From a virus: a stretch of 10,490 nt of DNA. The notes beneath the pieces were generated by a model. The model was not told the origin of the DNA. It was given only the letters and a program-made list of their open reading frames with translations, and did no database searches. A program made the translations under genes and the position numbers. This document shows, in pieces, positions 3,263 to 9,906 of this stretch; the first letter of the stretch is position 1; every line of letters starts with the position of its first letter. The DNA lies in UHGV virus genome UHGV-1619017. One strand, given 5' to 3'.

Positions 3263-4921
3263 TCAGCGCATCAGAATTGGCTTACCGACGATTCGGCGAG
3301 CTGTACCGGTCGGACAAACAGACCAGGACACCTCCCACAGATCGATGTCCTTTTGGACAACCTGAACAACATATGGATCTTCACCCTGGGACTTGTCACG
3401 TGGAGTAACCAGCGCACCGGCTGCAACATAACGGTCAAGCAATTCAGTCATTGCTTTCATTAGCGTTTCTTTGGTAATGCCATCCGGTTCGTGCTTAATC
3501 GCCTGAGCTACTTCATAGAAATCTCTGGCGATGGCGTTCATCAAGGAAGACACATGCTGGAATCGCAGATAGTTGTTTTTGCTGTAAGTTGTTAAAGAGT
3601 CGTCAATGTAAACGGACCCGTCAGCAGCAACTGAAACTGGATTAATGCGCGCAAGAACGAACGCTTCACGATCAACTGCACCGATATTTGGAATTCGGGC
3701 AATGTTCTGTCGATCAATAATCGCGCGTGATATACCTGCCGGTGCGTAATGCCAACCACCAACATCCGGTACCAGCGCCACTCCTTTTGCTTTCGCTACG
3801 AATGCATCGCAACTGATGCCGTAAACAACATTCATACCGGTGAAGGTATCTCGGCAGGAGAATGGGAAGTAGTAGCGGCTTGGCTGGTGTGAGCCACCAA
3901 AACTATGGCTTTTAGCTTCTGAAATAGCATTTTCTGGTGTCTGGTTGCCCTTCAGGTCGTAGAACATGTCTACACGAACGTCTTCTGCCAGATTTTTGAG
4001 CGCGGCTAAGGCGGATGCGTCATAGCAGCCCAGTGACAGTAATGCGGTGTAATTAACCTCCGAGGCTTCGAGAACCTTTAATGCTTCCAGATAGTCTTCG
4101 GTGTCAATGGTGGACAAATCGCCATCAGTGCCGCCTTCAAAAGCCACATCCTCAAACATGAGTTGAGCAGCAGATGCTTCCGCATTATCTGCCAGGACGG
4201 CACCAATGCGAGTGGACTGGCTTTCAAGCAGTGTCGGAATCCATGCTGGTTGGCCCATGTCGTTAGTGCCTTCTGGATTGAAGGACACCTGGTGGCTTTC
4301 CAGCACCTCAACAGACCCATCGGTTTGTTTTTCTTTCAGCGTCAGCGTAAAGAGTTCACTTTCTTCATCATCGCGAGTTAGTGATAACGTGCGATTTTGA
4401 GATGCATCACCATCTTTGATGAAGAATAATGCCTTCCCTTCGTCTTTAATCTGGGGAGTTTCTTTTGGTGTGAAAGTTACTGATTGTGTCGTTGCAGTTG
4501 AAGCAACACCCACGCTCAATGTGTCACCTGGATTTACTGTGGTTTCAGCAGGTTCCACGGTAAGTGTTTTGTTGGCCTTTGCCGCTTTTGCTCTGCTCGC
4601 GACGGAAACAGAAATTCCCGGCACCTTCATGTCTTTAGCGCAAACACGAACGACATAACCAGAGCCACCTTTTACGGCACGCTCTACGTGGCGGTATGGT
4701 TCAAATGCCGATCCCAGGCGAGGGTGAATAGGTGAACCTAATACGCTTTGATAAGTCGTATCGTCAACTTTCAGCACTTTACCCGGTGCGCCACGACGCG
4801 ATATTACAAGCCCAGCAAAGACAGATGCGCCACCGCTGGTATTGGTGAGGGTAGCGTCAGCATTTACCGCCATTACAGCAACGCCAGCTGCCTGCCCTAC
4901 CGAAAAACTAATCTTATTCAT
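3263..4921 (-). CDS. Phage tail sheath protein (contractile tail), with an internal Ig-like insertion (552 aa)
   Basis: ATG at 4921..4919, stop TGA at 3265..3263. C-terminal half carries sheath-family landmarks as I recall them: YYFPF, GGWHYAPAGISRA (W-x-APA), ARINPVSVAADGSVYIDDSLT, YLRFQHVSSLMNAI, and a C-terminal beta segment VVQVVQKDIDLWEVSWSVCP. N-terminal AG...G...VLGSP pattern resembles sheath N-termini. Residues about 100-230 are Thr/Ser/Val-rich and Ig-like (LTVEPAETTVNPGDTLSVG). Confidence 0.65.
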   Translation of the reverse strand: MNKISFSVGQAAGVAVMAVNADATLTNTSGGASVFAGLVISRRGAPGKVLKVDDTTYQSVLGSPIHPRLGSAFEPYRHVERAVKGGSGYVVRVCAKDMKVPGISVSVASRAKAAKANKTLTVEPAETTVNPGDTLSVGVASTATTQSVTFTPKETPQIKDEGKALFFIKDGDASQNRTLSLTRDDEESELFTLTLKEKQTDGSVEVLESHQVSFNPEGTNDMGQPAWIPTLLESQSTRIGAVLADNAEASAAQLMFEDVAFEGGTDGDLSTIDTEDYLEALKVLEASEVNYTALLSLGCYDASALAALKNLAEDVRVDMFYDLKGNQTPENAISEAKSHSFGGSHQPSRYYFPFSCRDTFTGMNVVYGISCDAFVAKAKGVALVPDVGGWHYAPAGISRAIIDRQNIARIPNIGAVDREAFVLARINPVSVAADGSVYIDDSLTTYSKNNYLRFQHVSSLMNAIARDFYEVAQAIKHEPDGITKETLMKAMTELLDRYVAAGALVTPRDKSQGEDPYVVQVVQKDIDLWEVSWSVCPTGTARRIVGKPILMR

Positions 4922-4958: not shown

Positions 4959-4985
4959 AGGCTACCCACGGTTAATGGGTAGCCT
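4959..4985 (-). other. Hairpin immediately 3' of the Ig-like gene and 5' of the sheath gene
   Basis: AGGCTACCCA-cggttaa-TGGGTAGCCT, 10-bp stem with 7-nt loop, 4 nt after the stop (4990-4992). Followed on the minus strand by a pyrimidine-rich but not U-rich tract. Possible attenuator or processing site. Confidence 0.3.
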
Positions 4986-4989
4986 CTGA

Positions 4990-5268
4990 TCAGGATTCGC
5001 CTACCGTGAAGTTGTCGCCTACGGTTACTTCTTTCGTAGTCGGTTCAACACTGACGGCGCTTACGCTTTTAGGTGCCTCCCTAACAGTGACCGTGCACTG
5101 TGCGGTTTTATTGCCGTCATTAGTTTTGATTGTCAGCACTGCCTGCCCTGCCTTAAGAGCGGTACATGTAGTGCCATCAACCCGGACAATTTCAGGGTGA
5201 TCGGACTCAACAGTGAAAGATTTGTCTGTTGCGTCAGATGGCGTGATAGTTACTTGAATGTTTGCCAT
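4990..5268 (-). CDS. Small Ig-like (Big_2-type) domain protein, possibly a virion decoration or accessory protein (92 aa)
   Basis: ATG at 5268..5266 with AGGAGA 5 nt upstream. Sequence FTVESDHPEIVRVDGTTCTALKAGQAVLTIKTNDGNKTAQCTVTV matches the bacterial Ig-like group 2 pattern (..VATVD..G.VTALKAG.A.ITA...DG.K.A.C.VTV). Ends inside what looks like the start of a second Ig repeat (SVSAVSVEPTTKEVTVGDNFTVGES). Confidence 0.6.
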   Translation of the reverse strand: MANIQVTITPSDATDKSFTVESDHPEIVRVDGTTCTALKAGQAVLTIKTNDGNKTAQCTVTVREAPKSVSAVSVEPTTKEVTVGDNFTVGES

Positions 5269-5280
5269 TTTTTCTCCTGA

Positions 5281-5301
5281 ACGCCCCTTAATCAGGGGCG
5301 T
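5281..5301 (-). other. Hairpin directly 5' of the SD of the Ig-like gene; reads as an intrinsic terminator only on the plus strand
   Basis: ACGCCCCT-taatc-AGGGGCGT, 8-bp stem. On the plus strand it is followed by GTTTTTGCC (terminator-like). On the coding minus strand it is preceded by an A-run and followed 2 nt later by AGGAGA-aaaaa-ATG. Confidence 0.3.
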
Positions 5302-5414
5302 GTTTTTGCCTTACTTCTGCTTTGTTTTTTTCTGTGCCTTTGAAGTGTTCGCGGCGATAGTTTCACCTTCATCTACGTCAAGTGACGTTGGTGATACCGA
5401 CACGTTCGCCACCA

Positions 5415-7112
5415 TCACTTTTTTTCGTTAACCTTGCCTGTCAGCATGTCGATAGCACCTTCTTTGGCACGAGTCAGACGCAGGCGGGCGAAATAATTCT
5501 CACCGTTGCGCGGGTGGACTTCGTTGATAGCACTACCCCAGAGAGTGGTGCGGTTAACGAGAGATGGATTGGTTTCGTGCACATACGGGATTGCTGGGAC
5601 CGCATCACCAGCGATCAGCCCGGCTTTACCGATGCCTTCACCGCGACCATAGAAATAAATGTCATCCAGACCTAAGTCATATCCCTGAGCCTTGAATTGC
5701 TCACACACAGGCTGCGGCACTTCGTAAATACGAATCGTGCCAAACAGGGTGCCGATGTACTGCACATACGGTGACTGAACGTAGCCCGGCGCGATTTGGA
5801 AGTGCTGTGGAGGCAGAGAACGCAGGAAGTTAGCTGCGTCACCACCTGCGAAGCCACCGCGAATACCTGTGGTCAGGGTGCGGTTTGCCATTTCCTGAGA
5901 CAGGGCGTTTACTGCGTGGCGCAGGAGGCCGACCCAGGACTCATAGTTTTGAGCTTCAGGCAGAGCCACATCAAATTCACGACCATAAACGGTATGGAAT
6001 ACCAGGGTGCGCAGACGCATGATGTCGGTTTCATGGGAGATCCAGTTCCGCATTGCGGAGAACTGAAGTGCCGCCAATTCAAGGCCGTGTTCACGGCTTA
6101 AATCGGAAGCGGACATTACGGTGTGTTCGGAAGCAATTACGTACTGAGACGGTCGAACTTCATACTTACGCATAGCCTGGTTGATTACCGGAATCAGGCT
6201 TGGATTGCGCTCGATGTTAATTTCGACCTGAACCGCAATTTCAGTCCCTTCTGCTGGCGCTTGAGTGAAGGTAATGTCGATGACACCAGTGTCATAAGCG
6301 ACTTTTGCGGTAGCTGAGAATGCATTGCCTTTGCAGTCTTTATCATTGAAATAAAGGTTGCCATCGCCGTCGTCAACCTTGGACGGTTTGCGGTTGATAA
6401 GCAGCTTGTTATAACCAGCACGCAGCGGGCAGGACTGCCCCTCAAAATTTTGGATGTCGAACTGGAAAGTTTTGGTGCTGCCGTCCCCTTTCGTGGAAAG
6501 GGTATACAGGCGCTTCATTTGAGAATAAACACCAGCGGATTGCATATTCAGTTCGTCACCTTGCTCGAAGGTGCCGAATTTTGTGCCTGCTACGTTGACC
6601 AGTTCATAAATATTTGACTCATCACGATCACAAGGAACAAAAGTACAGGCATCACTGGTAGCAGCACCCAGAGAGGCAGGCAGAATTAGTGCAGCATATT
6701 GAGCAACTTTCATTACGCCGTCAGAGCTACGCATTGATTGCGCGACAGACTCAAACATTGCCTTGCCAGTGCCTACGTGTGTATCGCTGGCACATTCAGT
6801 CATCAGGCGTTCAAGTGCCATGTGTGCGTTTGCCAGGATATCGCTTGCCGGGTAGTGACCATGCTGGCGCTTGTACTCATGCAGAGACATAGCCCACCCA
6901 CCAGCGATCTGACGTGCAACCTCTGGATTTACGCCTTCAAACATAGCCTCCTTCTGGATAGCTTTATCCAGGTTCTCCATCATCGCTGCCTGATCAGCAA
7001 TCATATTGCCCGCAGCATCGGTGGTCGGATCGACGGTCATAGCCATGACGCTTGCCGCCCGATTCATAATCTCGCGCTCGCGATCACGAGCTGGCTGAAT
7101 GTTTTTATTCAC
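5415..7112 (-). CDS. Putative major capsid (head) protein precursor, tentative (565 aa)
   Basis: Long ORF immediately upstream of the Ig-like and sheath genes in the same operon. Start at 7112 is GTG (the track shows M) with AGGG about 8 nt upstream. Size and position next to the sheath gene are consistent with a P1-type gene 23-like arrangement, but that is from memory. The Met/Ala-rich helical N-terminal 100-150 aa could be a cleaved propeptide. No motif-level proof of capsid fold. Confidence 0.4.
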   Translation of the reverse strand: MNKNIQPARDREREIMNRAASVMAMTVDPTTDAAGNMIADQAAMMENLDKAIQKEAMFEGVNPEVARQIAGGWAMSLHEYKRQHGHYPASDILANAHMALERLMTECASDTHVGTGKAMFESVAQSMRSSDGVMKVAQYAALILPASLGAATSDACTFVPCDRDESNIYELVNVAGTKFGTFEQGDELNMQSAGVYSQMKRLYTLSTKGDGSTKTFQFDIQNFEGQSCPLRAGYNKLLINRKPSKVDDGDGNLYFNDKDCKGNAFSATAKVAYDTGVIDITFTQAPAEGTEIAVQVEINIERNPSLIPVINQAMRKYEVRPSQYVIASEHTVMSASDLSREHGLELAALQFSAMRNWISHETDIMRLRTLVFHTVYGREFDVALPEAQNYESWVGLLRHAVNALSQEMANRTLTTGIRGGFAGGDAANFLRSLPPQHFQIAPGYVQSPYVQYIGTLFGTIRIYEVPQPVCEQFKAQGYDLGLDDIYFYGRGEGIGKAGLIAGDAVPAIPYVHETNPSLVNRTTLWGSAINEVHPRNGENYFARLRLTRAKEGAIDMLTGKVNEKK

Positions 7113-7680: not shown

Positions 7681-8139
7681 ATGAGTCACGCGAATCCATC
7701 AAAAACACAATATCGCTTAATGCTGGCGATCGCGTCAGCTATACCAACCAGCCTGAATCCCCCTGCTGGCTATCCCGCTGTTGTTGATGATTGTTTTCAG
7801 TATTACGGTGAAGACATTCTGGGACAGTCGAAAGCACTAAAACAGTTGTGCAAAGCCGGGATTCTTCACTGCATAGGCGATCCGGATGATTTTGTTGTCA
7901 TGCTGGCAGATCGTGACTCTTTTCTGCTGTCCTGGAAAGCCGGGGCGCGCGAAGCGCGTTTGGGGAATGGCATTGGCTACATAGACTATAGCGATTGCCC
8001 GCTGGCATTTGCTGGTGGATATATGCATTGGCATGAGCGAAATAGAGGCCGTCAGCGTCAGTATCGCTTGAGTGACTTTAACGTCTGTCACGGTTTCGAA
8101 GAAGCTGACAGCCAGGACATCTGGCTTCAGGAGCCTTGA
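7681..8139 (+). CDS. Hypothetical Cys/His-rich protein, likely co-transcribed with the upstream ribbon-helix-helix gene (152 aa from ATG 7681)
   Basis: Strong SD AGGGGGG 6 nt upstream of ATG 7681. In-frame ATGs at 7651 and 7660 would overlap the stop of the upstream gene (7661-7663), so the two genes are tightly coupled either way. Contains several Cys and His (C..YY, HC, DCP, HWH, CH) that could bind metal. No family recognised. Confidence 0.4.
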   Translation: MSHANPSKTQYRLMLAIASAIPTSLNPPAGYPAVVDDCFQYYGEDILGQSKALKQLCKAGILHCIGDPDDFVVMLADRDSFLLSWKAGAREARLGNGIGYIDYSDCPLAFAGGYMHWHERNRGRQRQYRLSDFNVCHGFEEADSQDIWLQEP

Positions 8140-8459
8140 TCCCCCTTCCCTTCCCAAATCTCCCTGTTTCTTTGGTTATTCAGTGCGTTTCGTTGGTTGC
8201 ATTCGTCGATCGTGCTGAATAACTGTTCAGCGTATGTCGGATACTTGTTTAACAGCACTGGCGTGTCCTCTGGCACTAAACAAGGGGAGTAATCAATCAG
8301 ATTTGCCTGCGGCTTGCTGGTGGCTTCTACGGTAATTTTCACTGGCACGCTGGTTGATGGCTTTTGCCCGTTCCCGCTGCATCCTGATAACGTCATCAGG
8401 CACACGCACATCGTTAATCCCAGCACGGCGCAACGCATTTTCAAGGCGAGTGATTTCAT
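8127..8459 (-). CDS. o-spanin (Rz1-like outer-membrane lipoprotein spanin subunit), start overlapping the i-spanin gene (110 aa precursor)
   Basis: Strong SD GGGAGGAAA upstream of ATG 8459. Signal peptide ending in lipobox LSGC (MKSLALKMRCAVLGLTMCVCLMTLSGC); mature part is Pro-rich and short with an extra Cys (SPCLVPEDTPV). Overlaps the i-spanin ORF by 167 nt out of frame (8293-8459), the classic overlapped spanin arrangement. Confidence 0.65.
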   Translation of the reverse strand: MKSLALKMRCAVLGLTMCVCLMTLSGCSGNGQKPSTSVPVKITVEATSKPQANLIDYSPCLVPEDTPVLLNKYPTYAEQLFSTIDECNQRNALNNQRNREIWEGKGDQGS

Positions 8460-8793
8460 TCTGGCTTTCCTCCCGCTGTTTGATCAGTCTGTTATTAAGT
8501 TCGGTTGTTTTGCGCTGGTAGTCTTTTTCCAGTTCTTTGATTCTTTCGTTTTCGACCTGCATGGCAGAGCGTGCGCCTTCACTTAACTGCAATGCGGTAG
8601 AAAGCGTGTTGTTCTCGCTTTCCAGTTGTGATTTTGAGTCTTCAAGCGACCGGACATACCTGATGTGTTCGATAACTGCCGTCGTTGTTCGGTAAATTCC
8701 AGAAATGGCTAAAAGCGCAATTACAATCAAAATTATCTTTTTCAAAACCACCCTCTTTAGTTTTTTTGGTGTTAAAAGTGTACCGTTTTGCAT
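8293..8793 (-). CDS. i-spanin (Rz-like inner-membrane spanin subunit) (166 aa)
   Basis: Short basic N-terminus (KKLKRVVLKK), a single hydrophobic transmembrane segment (IILIVIALLAISGIY), then a long charged, coiled-coil-like periplasmic region (SLEDSKSQLESENNTLSTALQ...ERIKELEKDYQRKTTELNNRLIKQREESQNEITRLENALRR). Same architecture as lambda Rz. Its 3' end contains the start of the lipoprotein gene in another frame. Confidence 0.65.
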   Translation of the reverse strand: MQNGTLLTPKKLKRVVLKKIILIVIALLAISGIYRTTTAVIEHIRYVRSLEDSKSQLESENNTLSTALQLSEGARSAMQVENERIKELEKDYQRKTTELNNRLIKQREESQNEITRLENALRRAGINDVRVPDDVIRMQRERAKAINQRASENYRRSHQQAAGKSD

Positions 8794-8818: not shown

Positions 8819-9622
8819 TTATGGTTCCTTTTTGGTGTTCTTTTGGAGCGCATCGATAACGCCTTGTGGCATGATTAAACTGATTGCCGGACTCATTACT
8901 GCATCGTCCAGTAGAGAACCTGTTAACGTGATTGCGACTGCGTTCTCTAAACCTTTGGTTGCCTGAGTTGTTGCCGTTTTAATGCGGTCAGCAAGGGCTA
9001 TGACACTCTCACTTGCTGAATTAATTCCGAAGAGTGAAACTTCAGCTACTGTTACCGCTTCCCGTAAAGCATCAATTTCATCCTGAGTAATGTCCGGAGC
9101 CTGTGCTGCCCCTCCACCAGCCTGTCCACCATCACTATCACCACCAGCACTCCCGGCAGCTTCAATTTTTGCGTTTATGGCGTTCATGGCGGTATTCAGA
9201 TCGTCAAGTTTCAGCGCCGCCAATGCGTCCGTTAATGATTGCGGGATGGAAACATTCCCCATCCCCTCTACCAGGGCGAACGCTGGCGCGGGGATCAGTT
9301 CATTACCTTTTGCGTGGCACTCCCAGCCAATCTTCATCTGTAACAACTCTGATGGCGTGGTGTATGGGGAAAGAGAGTCAGCCAGTGATGAAGAAGACTT
9401 GCTGGCCTCATTGAGCTGTTCGGAAAATCCAAGCAATTGAGTCGTCCAGGCCGACACTGAATCAGGATAGGTTTTATCAGGGTGAACCATTTCCTGTATT
9501 GCGCTCGCGAGTGACGAGGCTTTTGAAGAAGCCGCCAGGCTTATGGTTATTGATTCCGGTGTGGATGCACCAGCACCAGACAGAATTTGGAAGGCTTTAA
9601 CTTCACCTATTGAATCAAGCAT
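8819..9622 (-). CDS. Hypothetical protein, two-part with Ser/Ala-rich N-terminal half and Gly-rich linker (267 aa)
   Basis: ATG at 9622..9620 overlaps the TAA stop of the upstream PAAR-like gene (TAATG, 1-nt overlap), indicating translational coupling. Low-complexity linker AAGSAGGDSDGGQAGGGAAQAP. No transmembrane segment, no catalytic motif I can recognise. Antisense plus-strand ORFs here (9090..9440, 9103..9414) are artefacts. Confidence 0.45.
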   Translation of the reverse strand: MLDSIGEVKAFQILSGAGASTPESITISLAASSKASSLASAIQEMVHPDKTYPDSVSAWTTQLLGFSEQLNEASKSSSSLADSLSPYTTPSELLQMKIGWECHAKGNELIPAPAFALVEGMGNVSIPQSLTDALAALKLDDLNTAMNAINAKIEAAGSAGGDSDGGQAGGGAAQAPDITQDEIDALREAVTVAEVSLFGINSASESVIALADRIKTATTQATKGLENAVAITLTGSLLDDAVMSPAISLIMPQGVIDALQKNTKKEP

Positions 9623-9906
9623 TATGCGACCTGAAAAATATCCTCGCCGTTAGCGATAACAGAACCACAAGAAAGCGGATCGCCTACGCAGACTACTCCC
9701 TTTCCACCTATTGAATACCATGCCCGTGTCGATACAGCCGATCCGGGATGTGCACTGTTGCCATCTGTATGGCTGGGAAACATGGCACCATCCACAACAA
9801 CTGGCTTACCGTTGACGGTGAACCAGGGAACGGTTTCAGCTACCAGTCGCGGCGGAAATCCTCCGTGACCGGAACAAAGTGTGTCGCTGGTGGCTATTGC
9901 GCTCAT
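9622..9906 (-). CDS. PAAR-like small protein, candidate spike-tip protein of a contractile injection apparatus (94 aa)
   Basis: ATG at 9906..9904 with AGGAGA 6 nt upstream. Three repeated beta-turn segments with the spacing of PAAR repeats but degenerate motifs: SDTLCSGHGGFPP, VNGKPVVVDGAMFPSH, GKGVVCVGDPLSCGSVIANG. Compare canonical GD..C..HGG.I, INGKPAAR.GD, VGD...HGG.I. Memory-based, no HMM run. Confidence 0.4.
   Translation of the reverse strand: MSAIATSDTLCSGHGGFPPRLVAETVPWFTVNGKPVVVDGAMFPSHTDGNSAHPGSAVSTRAWYSIGGKGVVCVGDPLSCGSVIANGEDIFQVA

What the first reader, a model, noticed from the sequence alone, without database searches (positions are those of the whole stretch)
4990..5268. Ig-like protein ends inside a second, partial Ig repeat that resembles a segment of the sheath insertion domain
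After one complete Big_2-like domain the ORF continues with SVSAVSVEPTTKEVTVGDNFTVGES and then stops. This resembles the opening strand of another Big_2 domain and resembles LTVEPAETTVNPGDTLSVGVA inside the sheath (residues about 120-140, nt about 4502-4564). This suggests domain shuffling between a surface Ig module and the sheath, or a 3'-truncated gene remnant. No in-frame continuation exists in the other two frames before the sheath start, so a programmed frameshift is not supported.
Basis: seen in the sequence. Interest (0 to 1): 0.4.

Follow-up and report, generated by a model that had tools for sequence, protein, structure and literature searches.

The report
Split Ig domain on D6-like phages
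The small Ig-like gene between the capsid and tail-sheath genes of this D6-like phage-plasmid encodes an Ig domain that lacks its first strands, and copies of those strands sit on the protein's own tail, in a sheath loop and on a frameshift extension of the capsid protein, which suggests that the Ig protein clips onto head and tail by strand complementation.

Summary
The window is a D6-like, P1-related phage-plasmid; all genes discussed are on the minus strand. The 92-aa ORF (5268..4990) and its C-terminal 'partial repeat' are real.

The tail (residues 66-92) is a Big_2 A-A'-half-B fragment. The same kind of fragment occurs in two more places:
- In the -1 frame after the capsid gene (5418..5314). 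It is reached through a conserved, in-phase A_AAA_AAG heptamer (5424..5418). It is fused in frame in two diverged lineages, and some lineages have no start codon for it.
- As a roughly 28-aa insertion in a sheath loop (residues 113-141). AlphaFold models this stretch as low-confidence coil.

Across 109 sources, the free Ig gene, the capsid fragment and (where detectable) the sheath insertion co-occur. P1-like relatives have none of them. More distant relatives carry an unsplit capsid-Big_2 fusion and a short sheath.

The tail is under purifying selection (dN/dS 0.10-0.27), so it is not a gene remnant. There is no recent DNA shuffling with the sheath (49% nt identity, third codon positions random).

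Best reading, inferred and not demonstrated: a split Ig domain that docks by beta-strand complementation. This is a new variant of phage Ig decoration.

The parts
5415..7112 (-). Major capsid protein gene (P1 gp23 homologue, 565 aa), 0 frame
   Evidence: phrog_1014 E 4e-218. 97% identical to the phage D6 major capsid protein and 44% to P1 gp23.
5418..5424 (-). Slippery heptamer A_AAA_AAG, in phase (0-frame codons GAA AAA AAG), immediately before the capsid stop codon TGA (5417..5415)
   Evidence: Read directly from the sequence. Conserved in phase in every lineage of the frameshift type, while the stop codon (TGA/TAA/TAG, or two codons further on) and neighbouring synonymous sites vary. A_AAA_AAG is the dnaX shift site and is among the most shift-prone sequences in E. 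coli (PMC5009743).
5311..5418 (-). -1-frame extension ORF ('orf50' of D6): (KK)VMVANVSVSPTSLDVDEGETIAANTSKAQKKTKQK*. It is a Big_2 strand A-A'-half-B fragment followed by a Lys-rich end.
   Evidence: L021 has no ATG/GTG/TTG start for it. It is fused in frame to the capsid protein in L046 and L103. Spliced in silico to the Ig body, it raises the Pfam Big_2 score from 36.0 to 46.0 bits and extends coverage to profile 2-79.
5340..5413 (-). Candidate frameshift-stimulating stem-loop, with the stem GUGGCGA/UCGCCGC starting 5 nt 3' of the heptamer
   Evidence: MFE -31.1 kcal/mol, z -4.09. The consensus structure is kept in 5 sequences, but the stem is invariant, so there is no covariation. dS is low in this stretch (0.3-0.4, against about 1 in the flanks). 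Coordinates are approximate.
5281..5301 (.). G+C-rich hairpin between the extension ORF and the Ig gene
   Evidence: An equivalent hairpin is present in most related lineages examined; none was seen at this position in L101. On the + strand it scans as terminator-like.
5077..5268 (-). Ig protein body (residues 1-64): Big_2 strands B to G, lacking A/A'
   Evidence: Pfam PF02368, 34.1 bits, profile 22-79/79. dN/dS 0.02-0.07. AF2 core residues 18-63 have pLDDT 70-83, while N-terminal residues 1-13 are below 50. Foldseek top hits are Big_2 domains and the lambda gpV Ig domain.
4990..5076 (-). Ig protein linker and C-terminal tail (residues 65-92, plus stop): a second Big_2 strand A-A'-half-B fragment. 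This is the feature the finding points to.
   Evidence: In PDB 7quz the tail aligns to the segment immediately N-terminal to the part matched by the body. dN/dS 0.10-0.27. The tail is conserved in all homologues. Tail plus body gives Big_2 profile 2-79 at 39.4 bits.
4960..4984 (-). Hairpin (9-bp stem) after the Ig gene, before the sheath RBS
   Evidence: Read from the sequence. Not tested further.
3263..4921 (-). Tail sheath gene (P1 gp22 homologue, 552 aa)
   Evidence: phrog_1036 E 7e-197. AF2 mean pLDDT 83.1, pTM 0.82.
4499..4585 (-). Sheath loop insertion (residues about 113-141, ...AKANKTLTVEPAETTVNPGDTLSVGVAS): a third Big_2 A-A'-B-like fragment
   Evidence: It is an insertion relative to P1-type and other short sheaths. 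Hit by the donor-fragment HMM. Fragment plus Ig body gives Big_2 profile 4-79 at 43.8 bits, against 33.8-35.1 for shuffled or reversed controls. AF2 models residues 108-142 as coil with pLDDT 42-66, between confident strands 99-107 and 143-150.

Best explanation
The locus encodes an Ig (Big_2) domain that has been split into parts.

Shown from sequence and comparison:
1. The 92-aa protein is a Big_2 domain without strands A/A'. It carries at its C-terminus one extra A-A'-half-B fragment.
2. The upstream capsid gene ends in the dnaX-type slippery heptamer A_AAA_AAG. A -1 shift there adds 35 residues, and these are the same kind of A-A'-half-B fragment. A fraction of capsid subunits should therefore carry it. 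In two diverged lineages the fragment is fused in frame. In more distant relatives the capsid protein carries a whole C-terminal Big_2 domain.
3. The tail sheath of exactly those lineages that have the free Ig gene carries a third copy of the fragment. It is inserted in a surface loop that AlphaFold leaves unstructured.

Inferred:
The strand-A-less Ig protein is a diffusible decoration module. It completes its fold by taking the missing strands in trans (beta-strand or 'donor-strand' complementation). The donor can be the capsid extension (head attachment), the sheath loop (tail attachment), or the tail of another Ig subunit. The last option would give head-to-tail non-covalent chains that mimic a tandem Ig array. 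The linker between strand G and the tail is only about 4-7 residues, as between domains of tandem arrays. That favours complementation in trans over folding back in cis. The frameshift would set the number of attachment points on the head.
For: Identity of the locus
- 94.5% identical to phage D6; 121 related plasmids.

Incomplete domain
- Pfam Big_2 covers profile 22-79 only.
- PDB 7quz and many tandem Big_2 proteins align to residues 2-89 as an out-of-register slice across a domain boundary.

Capsid extension
- The heptamer is in phase and conserved across lineages with capsid identity 69-100%. The -1 peptide keeps the Big_2 pattern although its sequence diverges.
- L021 has no start codon for it.
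- It is fused in frame in L046/P0174 and L103/P0175.
- Unsplit capsid-Big_2 fusions exist: P0208, P0209, P0221, P0222, P0224.

Co-occurrence
- Of 109 sources, 53 have an Ig body. Of these, 30 have three donor-fragment hits and 22 have two. The one unsplit case (L104) has a single hit, its own contiguous strand A. The other 56 sources have neither body nor fragment.
- L105, L106 and L108 were not used to train the HMM and still show the pattern.
- L104 (unsplit fusion) has no free Ig gene and a 526-aa sheath without the insertion.
- L107 and the P1-type loci have none of the parts.

Sheath
- The insertion equals just the A-A'-B unit.
- HMM hits fall at the same site in several lineages.
- AF2 gives coil with pLDDT 42-66 inside a confident model.

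All three fragments fit the missing part of the profile
- +10.0, +3.4 and +7.8 bits with full-length coverage; controls change the score by -0.9 to -2.2 bits.

Selection
- Body dN/dS 0.02-0.07; tail 0.10-0.27.

Other
- L101 encodes a second, tail-less Ig body of 68 aa, which would fit a chain-capping subunit.
- Precedents for Ig extensions on coat proteins by frameshift or in frame, and for the shiftiness of A_AAA_AAG: PMC5009743.
- P1 itself lacks decoration proteins: PMC9024508.
Against: - No protein-level or structural evidence was available.
- The monomer AF2 model of the Ig protein is poor (pLDDT 61.7). It places tail residues 78-82 and 86-88 in strands, so some cis packing cannot be excluded.
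- The donor fragments overlap the acceptor by a few residues of strand B, so the split is not clean.
- dN/dS of the capsid extension is only 0.3-0.5, on about 13 substitutions, and is not significantly below 1 on its own.
- The lineages with all parts probably form one clade, so the co-occurrence is not many independent events.
- Sheath HMM hits are weak in several lineages (E 0.04-0.09) and absent in L103.
- The low pLDDT of the sheath insertion may partly reflect that only about 20 of the 64 aligned sequences have it.
- The frameshift-stimulating RNA structure has no covariation support.
- In lineages where every capsid subunit carries the fragment (L046, L103), the purpose of the Ig protein's own tail is less obvious.
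Confidence: 0.55

Rival explanations
1. Self-contained circular permutant. The C-terminal tail folds back and supplies strands A/A' to its own domain in cis, giving an ordinary monomeric Ig decoration or adhesion protein. The fragments on the capsid extension and in the sheath would then bind it some other way, displace the tail on assembly (strand exchange), or be unrelated to it.
For: - The tail aligns to the segment that precedes the domain in 7quz, which is the relationship expected of a circular permutation.
- The AF2 monomer puts residues 78-82 and 86-88 in beta-strands while the linker 65-78 is loose.
- Tail plus body scores as a full Big_2 domain.
- In L046 and L103 every capsid subunit already has a fragment, so a self-capping role for the tail would make sense.
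Against: - In an Ig fold the end of strand G and the start of strand A lie at opposite poles. This is general structural knowledge and was not measured here.
- The linker is as short as between domains of tandem arrays.
- AF2 confidence for the tail is low (40-59).
- This reading does not by itself explain why the same fragment is kept on the capsid protein and in the sheath only where the free Ig gene exists.
- L101 has a tail-less paralogue.
Confidence: 0.17
2. Evolutionary debris. Recombination within or between tandem Big_2 repeats left out-of-register pieces on the capsid gene, the Ig gene and the sheath gene. The Ig protein works (or not) without strand A, and the fragments have no docking role.
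For: - Ig-like modules move promiscuously among phage structural genes and land in or out of frame (PMC5009743).
- The ORF is an out-of-register slice of a tandem array.
- dN/dS of the capsid extension is only moderately below 1.
Against: - The same register of all three fragments is kept across lineages whose Ig proteins have diverged to well under 60% identity.
- All 53 Ig-bearing sources keep intact ORFs.
- The tail has dN/dS of 0.10-0.27 at saturating dS.
- The heptamer is retained in phase in a very highly expressed gene, a setting in which A_AAA_AAG is normally avoided.
- An in-frame version exists.
Confidence: 0.12
3. The tail is the stump of a lost second domain (3'-truncated gene), or the product of recent domain shuffling between this gene and the sheath insertion domain.
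For: Local similarity between tail and sheath of 10/27 identical residues, E 0.02. 0 of 500 shuffles reach the score.
Against: - No longer two-domain version was found among close or distant relatives. All are 88-96 aa, plus one 68-aa paralogue.
- The tail is under purifying selection.
- Nucleotide identity is 49%, with third positions at chance level.
- The similarity equals that to an unrelated Big_2 domain.
- hhalign probability is 1.6%.
Confidence: 0.04
4. Mechanistic sub-rival for the capsid extension. The fragment is made by transcriptional slippage on the run of seven A's (one extra A in the mRNA), or by independent initiation at the GTG/ATG that overlaps the capsid stop. It is not made by ribosomal -1 frameshifting.
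For: - The run A7 precedes G, and an inserted A would give the identical protein.
- D6-type sequences have GTG ATG at the start of the -1 ORF.
- D6 is annotated with a separate 'orf50'.
Against: - L021 has no start codon in the -1 ORF, and other lineages lack an ATG or a Shine-Dalgarno sequence there.
- The conserved feature is the exact in-phase heptamer A_AAA_AAG rather than a longer A run.
- Seven A's is short for efficient slippage by E. coli RNA polymerase. This is general knowledge and was not tested here.
Confidence: 0.12

Closest known systems
Capsid proteins with a C-terminal Big_2/Ig-like domain (phi29 gp8 from my own knowledge; here the relatives P0208, P0209, P0221, P0222, P0224)
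   Same: A Big_2 module follows the C-terminus of an HK97-type major capsid protein and is expected to be displayed on the head surface. The relatives belong to the same capsid family at 46-53% identity.
   Different: In the window the capsid protein can carry only the first about 24 residues of the domain. The rest is a separate gene product.
Ig-like C-terminal extensions made by programmed frameshifting (T3 coat protein, Lactobacillus phage A2, Listeria phages A118/A500; PMC5009743)
   Same: A -1 shift near the 3' end of the coat gene gives a minority, extended capsid subunit carrying Ig-like sequence. In related phages the extension may be in frame or out of frame (compare L046/L103 with D6).
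   Different: Those extensions are whole domains. Here the extension is a fragment that cannot fold as an Ig domain on its own.
E. coli dnaX -1 frameshift cassette
   Same: Identical heptamer A_AAA_AAG in the same phase, with a possible stem-loop 5 nt downstream.
   Different: There is no consistent upstream Shine-Dalgarno-like stimulator. The 0-frame stop follows immediately in D6-type sequences. Efficiency is unknown.
Donor-strand complementation/exchange of chaperone-usher pilins (from my own knowledge)
   Same: An Ig-like subunit lacks one edge strand and carries a terminal extension that could fill the groove of the next subunit. This predicts non-covalent head-to-tail polymers and a possible capping subunit (the tail-less paralogue in L101).
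   Different: The topology is reversed: pilins lack the C-terminal strand G and donate an N-terminal extension. No chaperone or usher is present. There is no homology. The mechanism here is inferred only.
Separate Ig-like decoration proteins (T4 Hoc, T5 pb10, N4 gp17; PMC10385173, PMC5292684, PMC11768535)
   Same: A small, separately encoded Ig-domain protein expected on the virion surface.
   Different: Those proteins use a dedicated capsid-binding domain and have complete Ig folds. None is reported to share a split domain with the capsid protein or the sheath.

Membership tests
Pfam Big_2 (PF02368) | Score above the gathering threshold (22.8 bits) | tested here: met
   34.1 bits, E 2.6e-8.
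Pfam Big_2 (PF02368) | Complete domain (profile positions 1-79, including strands A/A') | tested here: not met
   Only profile 22-79 is matched at the N-terminus. Positions about 2-24 reappear after the domain as the tail.
Programmed -1 ribosomal frameshift (dnaX type) | X_XXY_YYZ heptamer in the correct phase | tested here: met
   A_AAA_AAG with 0-frame codons AAA AAG at 5424..5418. Conserved in 9 lineages.
Programmed -1 ribosomal frameshift (dnaX type) | Open, conserved -1 ORF that depends on the shift (no initiation codon of its own) | tested here: met
   The ORF is intact in all relatives. L021 has no ATG/GTG/TTG. It is in frame in L046 and L103.
Programmed -1 ribosomal frameshift (dnaX type) | Stimulatory elements (3' structure, 5' Shine-Dalgarno-like sequence) | tested here: inconclusive
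   A stable stem-loop lies 5 nt downstream (z -4.09). The stem is invariant, so there is no covariation. Upstream SD-like motifs are inconsistent between lineages.
Programmed -1 ribosomal frameshift (dnaX type) | Trans-frame protein observed | not testable with these tools
   Needs virion mass spectrometry or a reporter assay.
Donor-strand complementation systems (pilin-like) | Ig-like subunit with a missing strand, plus a donor extension | tested here: met
   By sequence and profile only: the body lacks A/A' and the tail is an A-A' fragment.
Donor-strand complementation systems (pilin-like) | Missing strand is the C-terminal G, the donor is an N-terminal extension, and assembly uses a chaperone/usher | tested here: not met
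   Reversed topology. No chaperone or usher genes in the window. It is therefore an analogue at most, not a member.
Donor-strand complementation systems (pilin-like) | Physical insertion of the donor strand into the neighbouring subunit | not testable with these tools
Myophage tail sheath (P1 gp22 family, phrog_1036) | Full-length match to the family | tested here: met
   E 7e-197, residues 1-552. 44% identical to P1 gp22. AF2 pTM 0.82.
Capsid protein with fused C-terminal Big_2 domain | Whole Big_2 domain on the capsid polypeptide | tested here: not met
   The window's capsid protein, with or without the shift, carries at most the A-A'-half-B fragment. Relatives P0208 and others carry the whole domain.

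The most novel reading that the evidence does not exclude
D6-like phages build their Ig decoration by non-covalent donor-strand complementation. Chains of the 92-aa subunit, each completing the next one's fold, are nucleated on frameshift-extended capsid subunits and on a sheath loop. In some lineages the chains are capped by a tail-less paralogue. This would be a phage counterpart of chaperone-usher pilus assembly with reversed strand topology, and a natural split-domain 'tag/catcher' pair.
Probability: 0.3. Interest if true: 0.85.

Novelty: new variant of a known kind. Interest (0 to 1): 0.7.

Why it matters
Ig-like domains on phage virions are common, and some are known to be added by frameshifting. 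They have been seen as whole domains, either fused to a structural protein or borne on proteins with their own binding domain. Here one domain appears to be divided between genes, with the 'key' strands placed on the capsid protein (dosed by a frameshift), on the sheath and on the module itself.

If the parts reassemble, this has four consequences:
- It is a new way for a virus to attach one accessory module to several structural lattices, and possibly to polymerise it.
- It explains an unannotated recoding event in a widespread family of E. coli and Salmonella phage-plasmids. The D6 record lists the extension as a separate hypothetical 'orf50'.
- It offers a natural, small peptide/domain pair for display on phage particles.
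- It corrects the annotation of the capsid gene in more than 100 plasmid records.

Tried and rejected
- Stop-codon readthrough joining the -1 ORF to the Ig ORF. In the window they share a frame and are separated by one TAA and 14 sense codons. In D6 and most relatives the frames differ, so this is coincidental.
- Frameshift or continuation at the 3' end of the Ig ORF. There are only 68 nt before the sheath start.
- Translational bypass from the extension to the Ig ORF. Considered, but every lineage has its own strong RBS and ATG, and L101 has two such genes.
- Recent DNA exchange between the tail and the sheath. Nucleotide identity is 49% and third positions are random.
- Profile-profile homology between tail and sheath. 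hhalign is not significant.
- Structure prediction of a fused extension-Ig construct.
- Exhaustive HMMER search with the 92-aa protein. The top 150 hits were swamped by giant tandem Big_2 proteins. It confirmed only that residues 2-89 align as an out-of-register slice.
- Rfam: no family in the window.
- Genome-contig scan: one redundant hit.
- The D6 genome paper (PMC5800970) is not held in the library. I could not check whether its authors discuss orf49/orf50. Literature searches for strand complementation in phage decoration found nothing relevant.
- My first fold of the '87% group' used a sequence I had back-translated wrongly (second sequence). It should be ignored; the real sequences were used.
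Full report
**Context.**
The window is 94.5% identical over the tested 4.2 kb to Escherichia phage D6, a P1-related phage-plasmid. It matches 121 plasmid records from Escherichia, Salmonella and Shigella. All genes discussed lie on the minus strand. In order they are:
- major capsid protein (P1 gp23 homologue), 7112..5415
- a 35-codon ORF, 5418..5311, annotated in D6 as hypothetical 'orf50'
- the 92-aa Ig ORF, 5268..4990 ('orf49', 'structural protein with Ig domain')
- tail sheath (gp22 homologue), 4921..3263
- homologues of gp21, PmgG, BplB, PmgC and Tub

**Checking the observation.**
The tail does resemble sheath residues 112-138. There are 10/27 identities with BLASTP E 0.02. The ungapped score is 41, against 16.7 +/- 5.1 for shuffled sheath, and no shuffle out of 500 reaches it.

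Several tests limit what that resemblance means. It is no stronger than the resemblance to an unrelated Big_2 domain (PDB 7quz, 10/24). A profile-profile comparison is not significant. At the DNA level identity is 49%, with third codon positions at chance (7/27).

The statement 'one complete Big_2-like domain' is wrong. The Pfam match covers ORF residues 4-60, which correspond to profile positions 22-79 of 79. The protein therefore starts at strand B. In 7quz the tail aligns to the 20 residues immediately before the stretch matched by the body. In many tandem Big_2 proteins, residues 2-89 align as one contiguous out-of-register slice. The ORF is thus strands B to G followed by an A-A'-half-B fragment.

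**The missing strands are upstream.**
The capsid gene ends ...AAC GAA AAA AAG TGA. The heptamer A_AAA_AAG (5424..5418) is in the phase needed for a -1 shift. The -1 frame then reads (KK)VMVANVSVSPTSLDVDEGETIAANTSKAQKKTKQK*. Its first 24 or so residues are again a Big_2 A-A'-half-B fragment. Joining that fragment in silico to the Ig body raises the Pfam score from 36.0 to 46.0 bits, and the match becomes full length at profile 2-79.

A_AAA_AAG is the dnaX shift site. It is one of the most shift-prone sequences in E. coli and is absent from that organism's most highly expressed genes (PMC5009743).

**Comparative evidence for the capsid extension.**
I collected related loci from IMG/VR, metagenomes and assemblies. 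The capsid 3' ends fall into four types:

1. Frameshift type. This covers the D6 group, L016, L017/18, L021, L101, L102, L105, L106 and L108, with capsid identity 69-100%.
   - The in-phase heptamer is always present.
   - The 0-frame stop codon varies (TGA, TAA, TAG, or two codons later), and so do neighbouring synonymous sites.
   - The -1 peptide keeps the Big_2 pattern while its sequence diverges. Examples are VGVTGVSVSSDGQELSEGDSFAIE*, VSVTGISVSQATLECSPGDNVLFVD* and VGVTGVSVSSSDVVVTVGDTIQA*.
   - In L021 the -1 ORF has no ATG, GTG or TTG at all.
2. In-frame type. In L046/P0174 and L103/P0175 the same fragment is fused in frame to the capsid protein (...GTVVEGVTLSPASITVSAGDEITAGNTKKDS*), with no heptamer.
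3. Unsplit type. More distant members of the capsid family (46-53% identity: P0208, P0209, P0221, P0222, P0224) carry a complete C-terminal Big_2 domain.
4. No Ig. P1, JK004, L026/L048, L049, L089/L093 and L107 have no heptamer, no fragment and no Ig gene.

Types 1 and 2 are always followed by a free Ig gene of the same architecture. It starts at strand B and ends in an A-A'-half-B fragment, at 91-96 aa. L101 also has a 68-aa paralogue without the tail.

**The sheath piece.**
It sits between two strands conserved in all sheaths, and it is present only in one clade.

An HMM built from 17 capsid-extension and Ig-tail fragments, with no sheath sequence in it, hits this site in several lineages. 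E-values in a database of 78 sequences are L101 5.6e-6, L016 4e-5, window 2.4e-4, L102 3e-3, and 0.04-0.09 for three more. It does not hit the sheaths of P1, JK004, L026 or the unsplit L104, nor any of 66 background ORFs.

The sheath fragment joined to the Ig body also gives a near full-length Big_2 match (profile 4-79, 43.8 bits). The tail gives 39.4 bits at profile 2-79. Shuffled or reversed controls give 33.8-35.1 bits.

AlphaFold2 with a 64-sequence alignment models the sheath well (pLDDT 83.1, pTM 0.82). It leaves residues 108-142 as coil with pLDDT 42-66, between confident strands 99-107 and 143-150.

L104, where the Ig domain is covalently fused to the capsid protein, has no free Ig gene and a 526-aa sheath without the insertion. 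The sheath insertion therefore tracks the free Ig protein rather than Ig on the head as such.

**Tally.**
Six-frame HMM scans covered all 108 loci plus the window:

| Sources | Ig body | Donor-fragment hits |
|---|---|---|
| 30 | yes | 3 |
| 22 | yes | 2 (sheath hit below threshold, or locus cut) |
| 1 (unsplit L104) | yes | 1 (its own contiguous strand A) |
| 56 | no | 0 |

L105, L106 and L108 were not in the training set and still show the pattern.

**Selection.**
Between D6-type, L016 and L017/18 sequences, dN/dS values are as follows:

| Region | dN/dS | Note |
|---|---|---|
| Capsid 3' part | 0.04-0.06 | |
| Ig body | 0.02-0.07 | |
| Ig tail | 0.10-0.27 | dS about 1-1.8 |
| Capsid extension | 0.3-0.5 | unusually low dS (0.3-0.4) |

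The tail is therefore not a decaying remnant. The extension is less clearly constrained at the protein level. Its low dS would fit an overlapping RNA signal. A stem-loop starting 5 nt after the heptamer is stable (z -4.09) and conserved, but it shows no covariation.

**What it most likely is.**
The following are shown from sequence and comparison:
- an Ig domain lacking A/A'
- three copies of the A-A'-half-B unit, on the capsid extension, on the Ig tail and in a sheath loop
- a conserved recoding signal
- co-occurrence of all these parts
- an evolutionary series from unsplit fusion to split arrangement

The following is inferred. The free Ig protein completes its fold with a fragment supplied in trans, and this attaches it to head and tail. 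Through its own tail it may also bind further copies of itself.

The short linker between strand G and the tail equals that between domains in tandem arrays. It argues for trans rather than cis complementation, because in Ig folds the end of G and the start of A lie at opposite poles. That last point is general structural knowledge and was not measured here. The AF2 monomer model is too weak to decide between cis and trans (pLDDT 61.7; N-terminus and linker below 50). I could not run complex predictions. I put 0.55 on the strand-complementation reading as a whole. I hold the sequence-level facts behind it with considerably more confidence.

**Comparison with the known.**
- Ig-like extensions of coat proteins by frameshift or in frame are established for T3, A2 and A118/A500 (PMC5009743).
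- A capsid protein with a fused Big_2 domain is known from phi29 (my own knowledge). Relatives of this capsid family have one too.
- Separate Ig decoration proteins such as Hoc, pb10 and N4 gp17 have complete Ig folds and dedicated anchors (one search list).
- P1 itself is reported to lack decoration proteins (PMC9024508).
- Donor-strand complementation is known from chaperone-usher pili (my own knowledge), but with the opposite strand topology and with dedicated assembly machinery. This locus would be an analogue, not a member.

I found no report of a split Ig domain shared between a capsid protein, a sheath and a free subunit. I could not read the D6 genome paper.

**Verdict.**
I rate it a new variant of a known kind, with interest 0.7. 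The most novel reading not excluded is a self-polymerising, pilus-like donor-strand assembly of Ig subunits on the virion, at probability about 0.3.

Noticed in passing
window 5311-5424 (minus strand): The capsid gene carries an unannotated recoding signal (A_AAA_AAG) and a -1 extension. Public records list it as a separate hypothetical 'orf50' (D6) or do not annotate it at all (RefSeq plasmids). More than 100 records would need the capsid CDS re-annotated.
   Followed up: yes
L101:4830-5036 (Logan SRR11077323 contig): One lineage has two Ig genes in tandem. One is a 68-aa body without the C-terminal fragment. The other is a 91-aa body with it. The tail-less one could act as a chain cap or have a separate target.
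   Followed up: partly
L105:2501-4270 (JGI Ga0397306_00023): This sheath is 589 aa. Its loop insertion is much longer: about 45 extra residues rich in Pro, Glu and Lys come before a very clear Big_2 A-A'-B unit (VTSVTATPDSLEVAVGDEIQVIG). It looks like a longer tether.
   Followed up: no
window 5314-5340 and the equivalent in L102, L105, L108: Several -1 extensions end in a Lys/Arg-rich stretch after the Big_2 fragment (KAQKKTKQK, TKTKSRKKP, KPKKRKKNQPR). Others stop right after the fragment (L021, L101, L106). The role of the basic end is unknown.
   Followed up: no
window 5269-5313: In this window (and in L003 and L027) the extension ORF and the Ig ORF are in the same frame, separated by a single TAA and 14 sense codons. 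A 1-nt difference in the A run before the ATG puts them in different frames in D6 and most relatives.
   Followed up: yes
window 5281-5301 and 4960-4984: G+C-rich hairpins flank the Ig gene. The first scans as an intrinsic terminator only on the + strand, antisense to the genes. They may tune the relative expression of capsid, Ig and sheath genes, or block antisense transcription.
   Followed up: partly
window 8127-8793 (minus strand): A 166-aa ORF has an N-terminal hydrophobic segment. An overlapping, out-of-frame 110-aa ORF has a lipoprotein-like signal (LSGCSG). Together they look like an overlapped i-spanin/o-spanin pair. Both are annotated as hypothetical in D6.
   Followed up: no
window 9622-9906 (minus strand): A 94-aa PAAR-like protein (P1 UpfC homologue), followed by a 267-aa Ala/Ser-rich protein (UpfB homologue).
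   Followed up: no
L027 (CALWLV010000256.1, labelled 'uncultured Roseburia sp.' MAG): A contig binned as Roseburia carries a D6-type capsid-Ig region whose capsid match is 100% identical (residues 356-565) to the window. This is probably a binning artefact in a gut metagenome.
   Followed up: no
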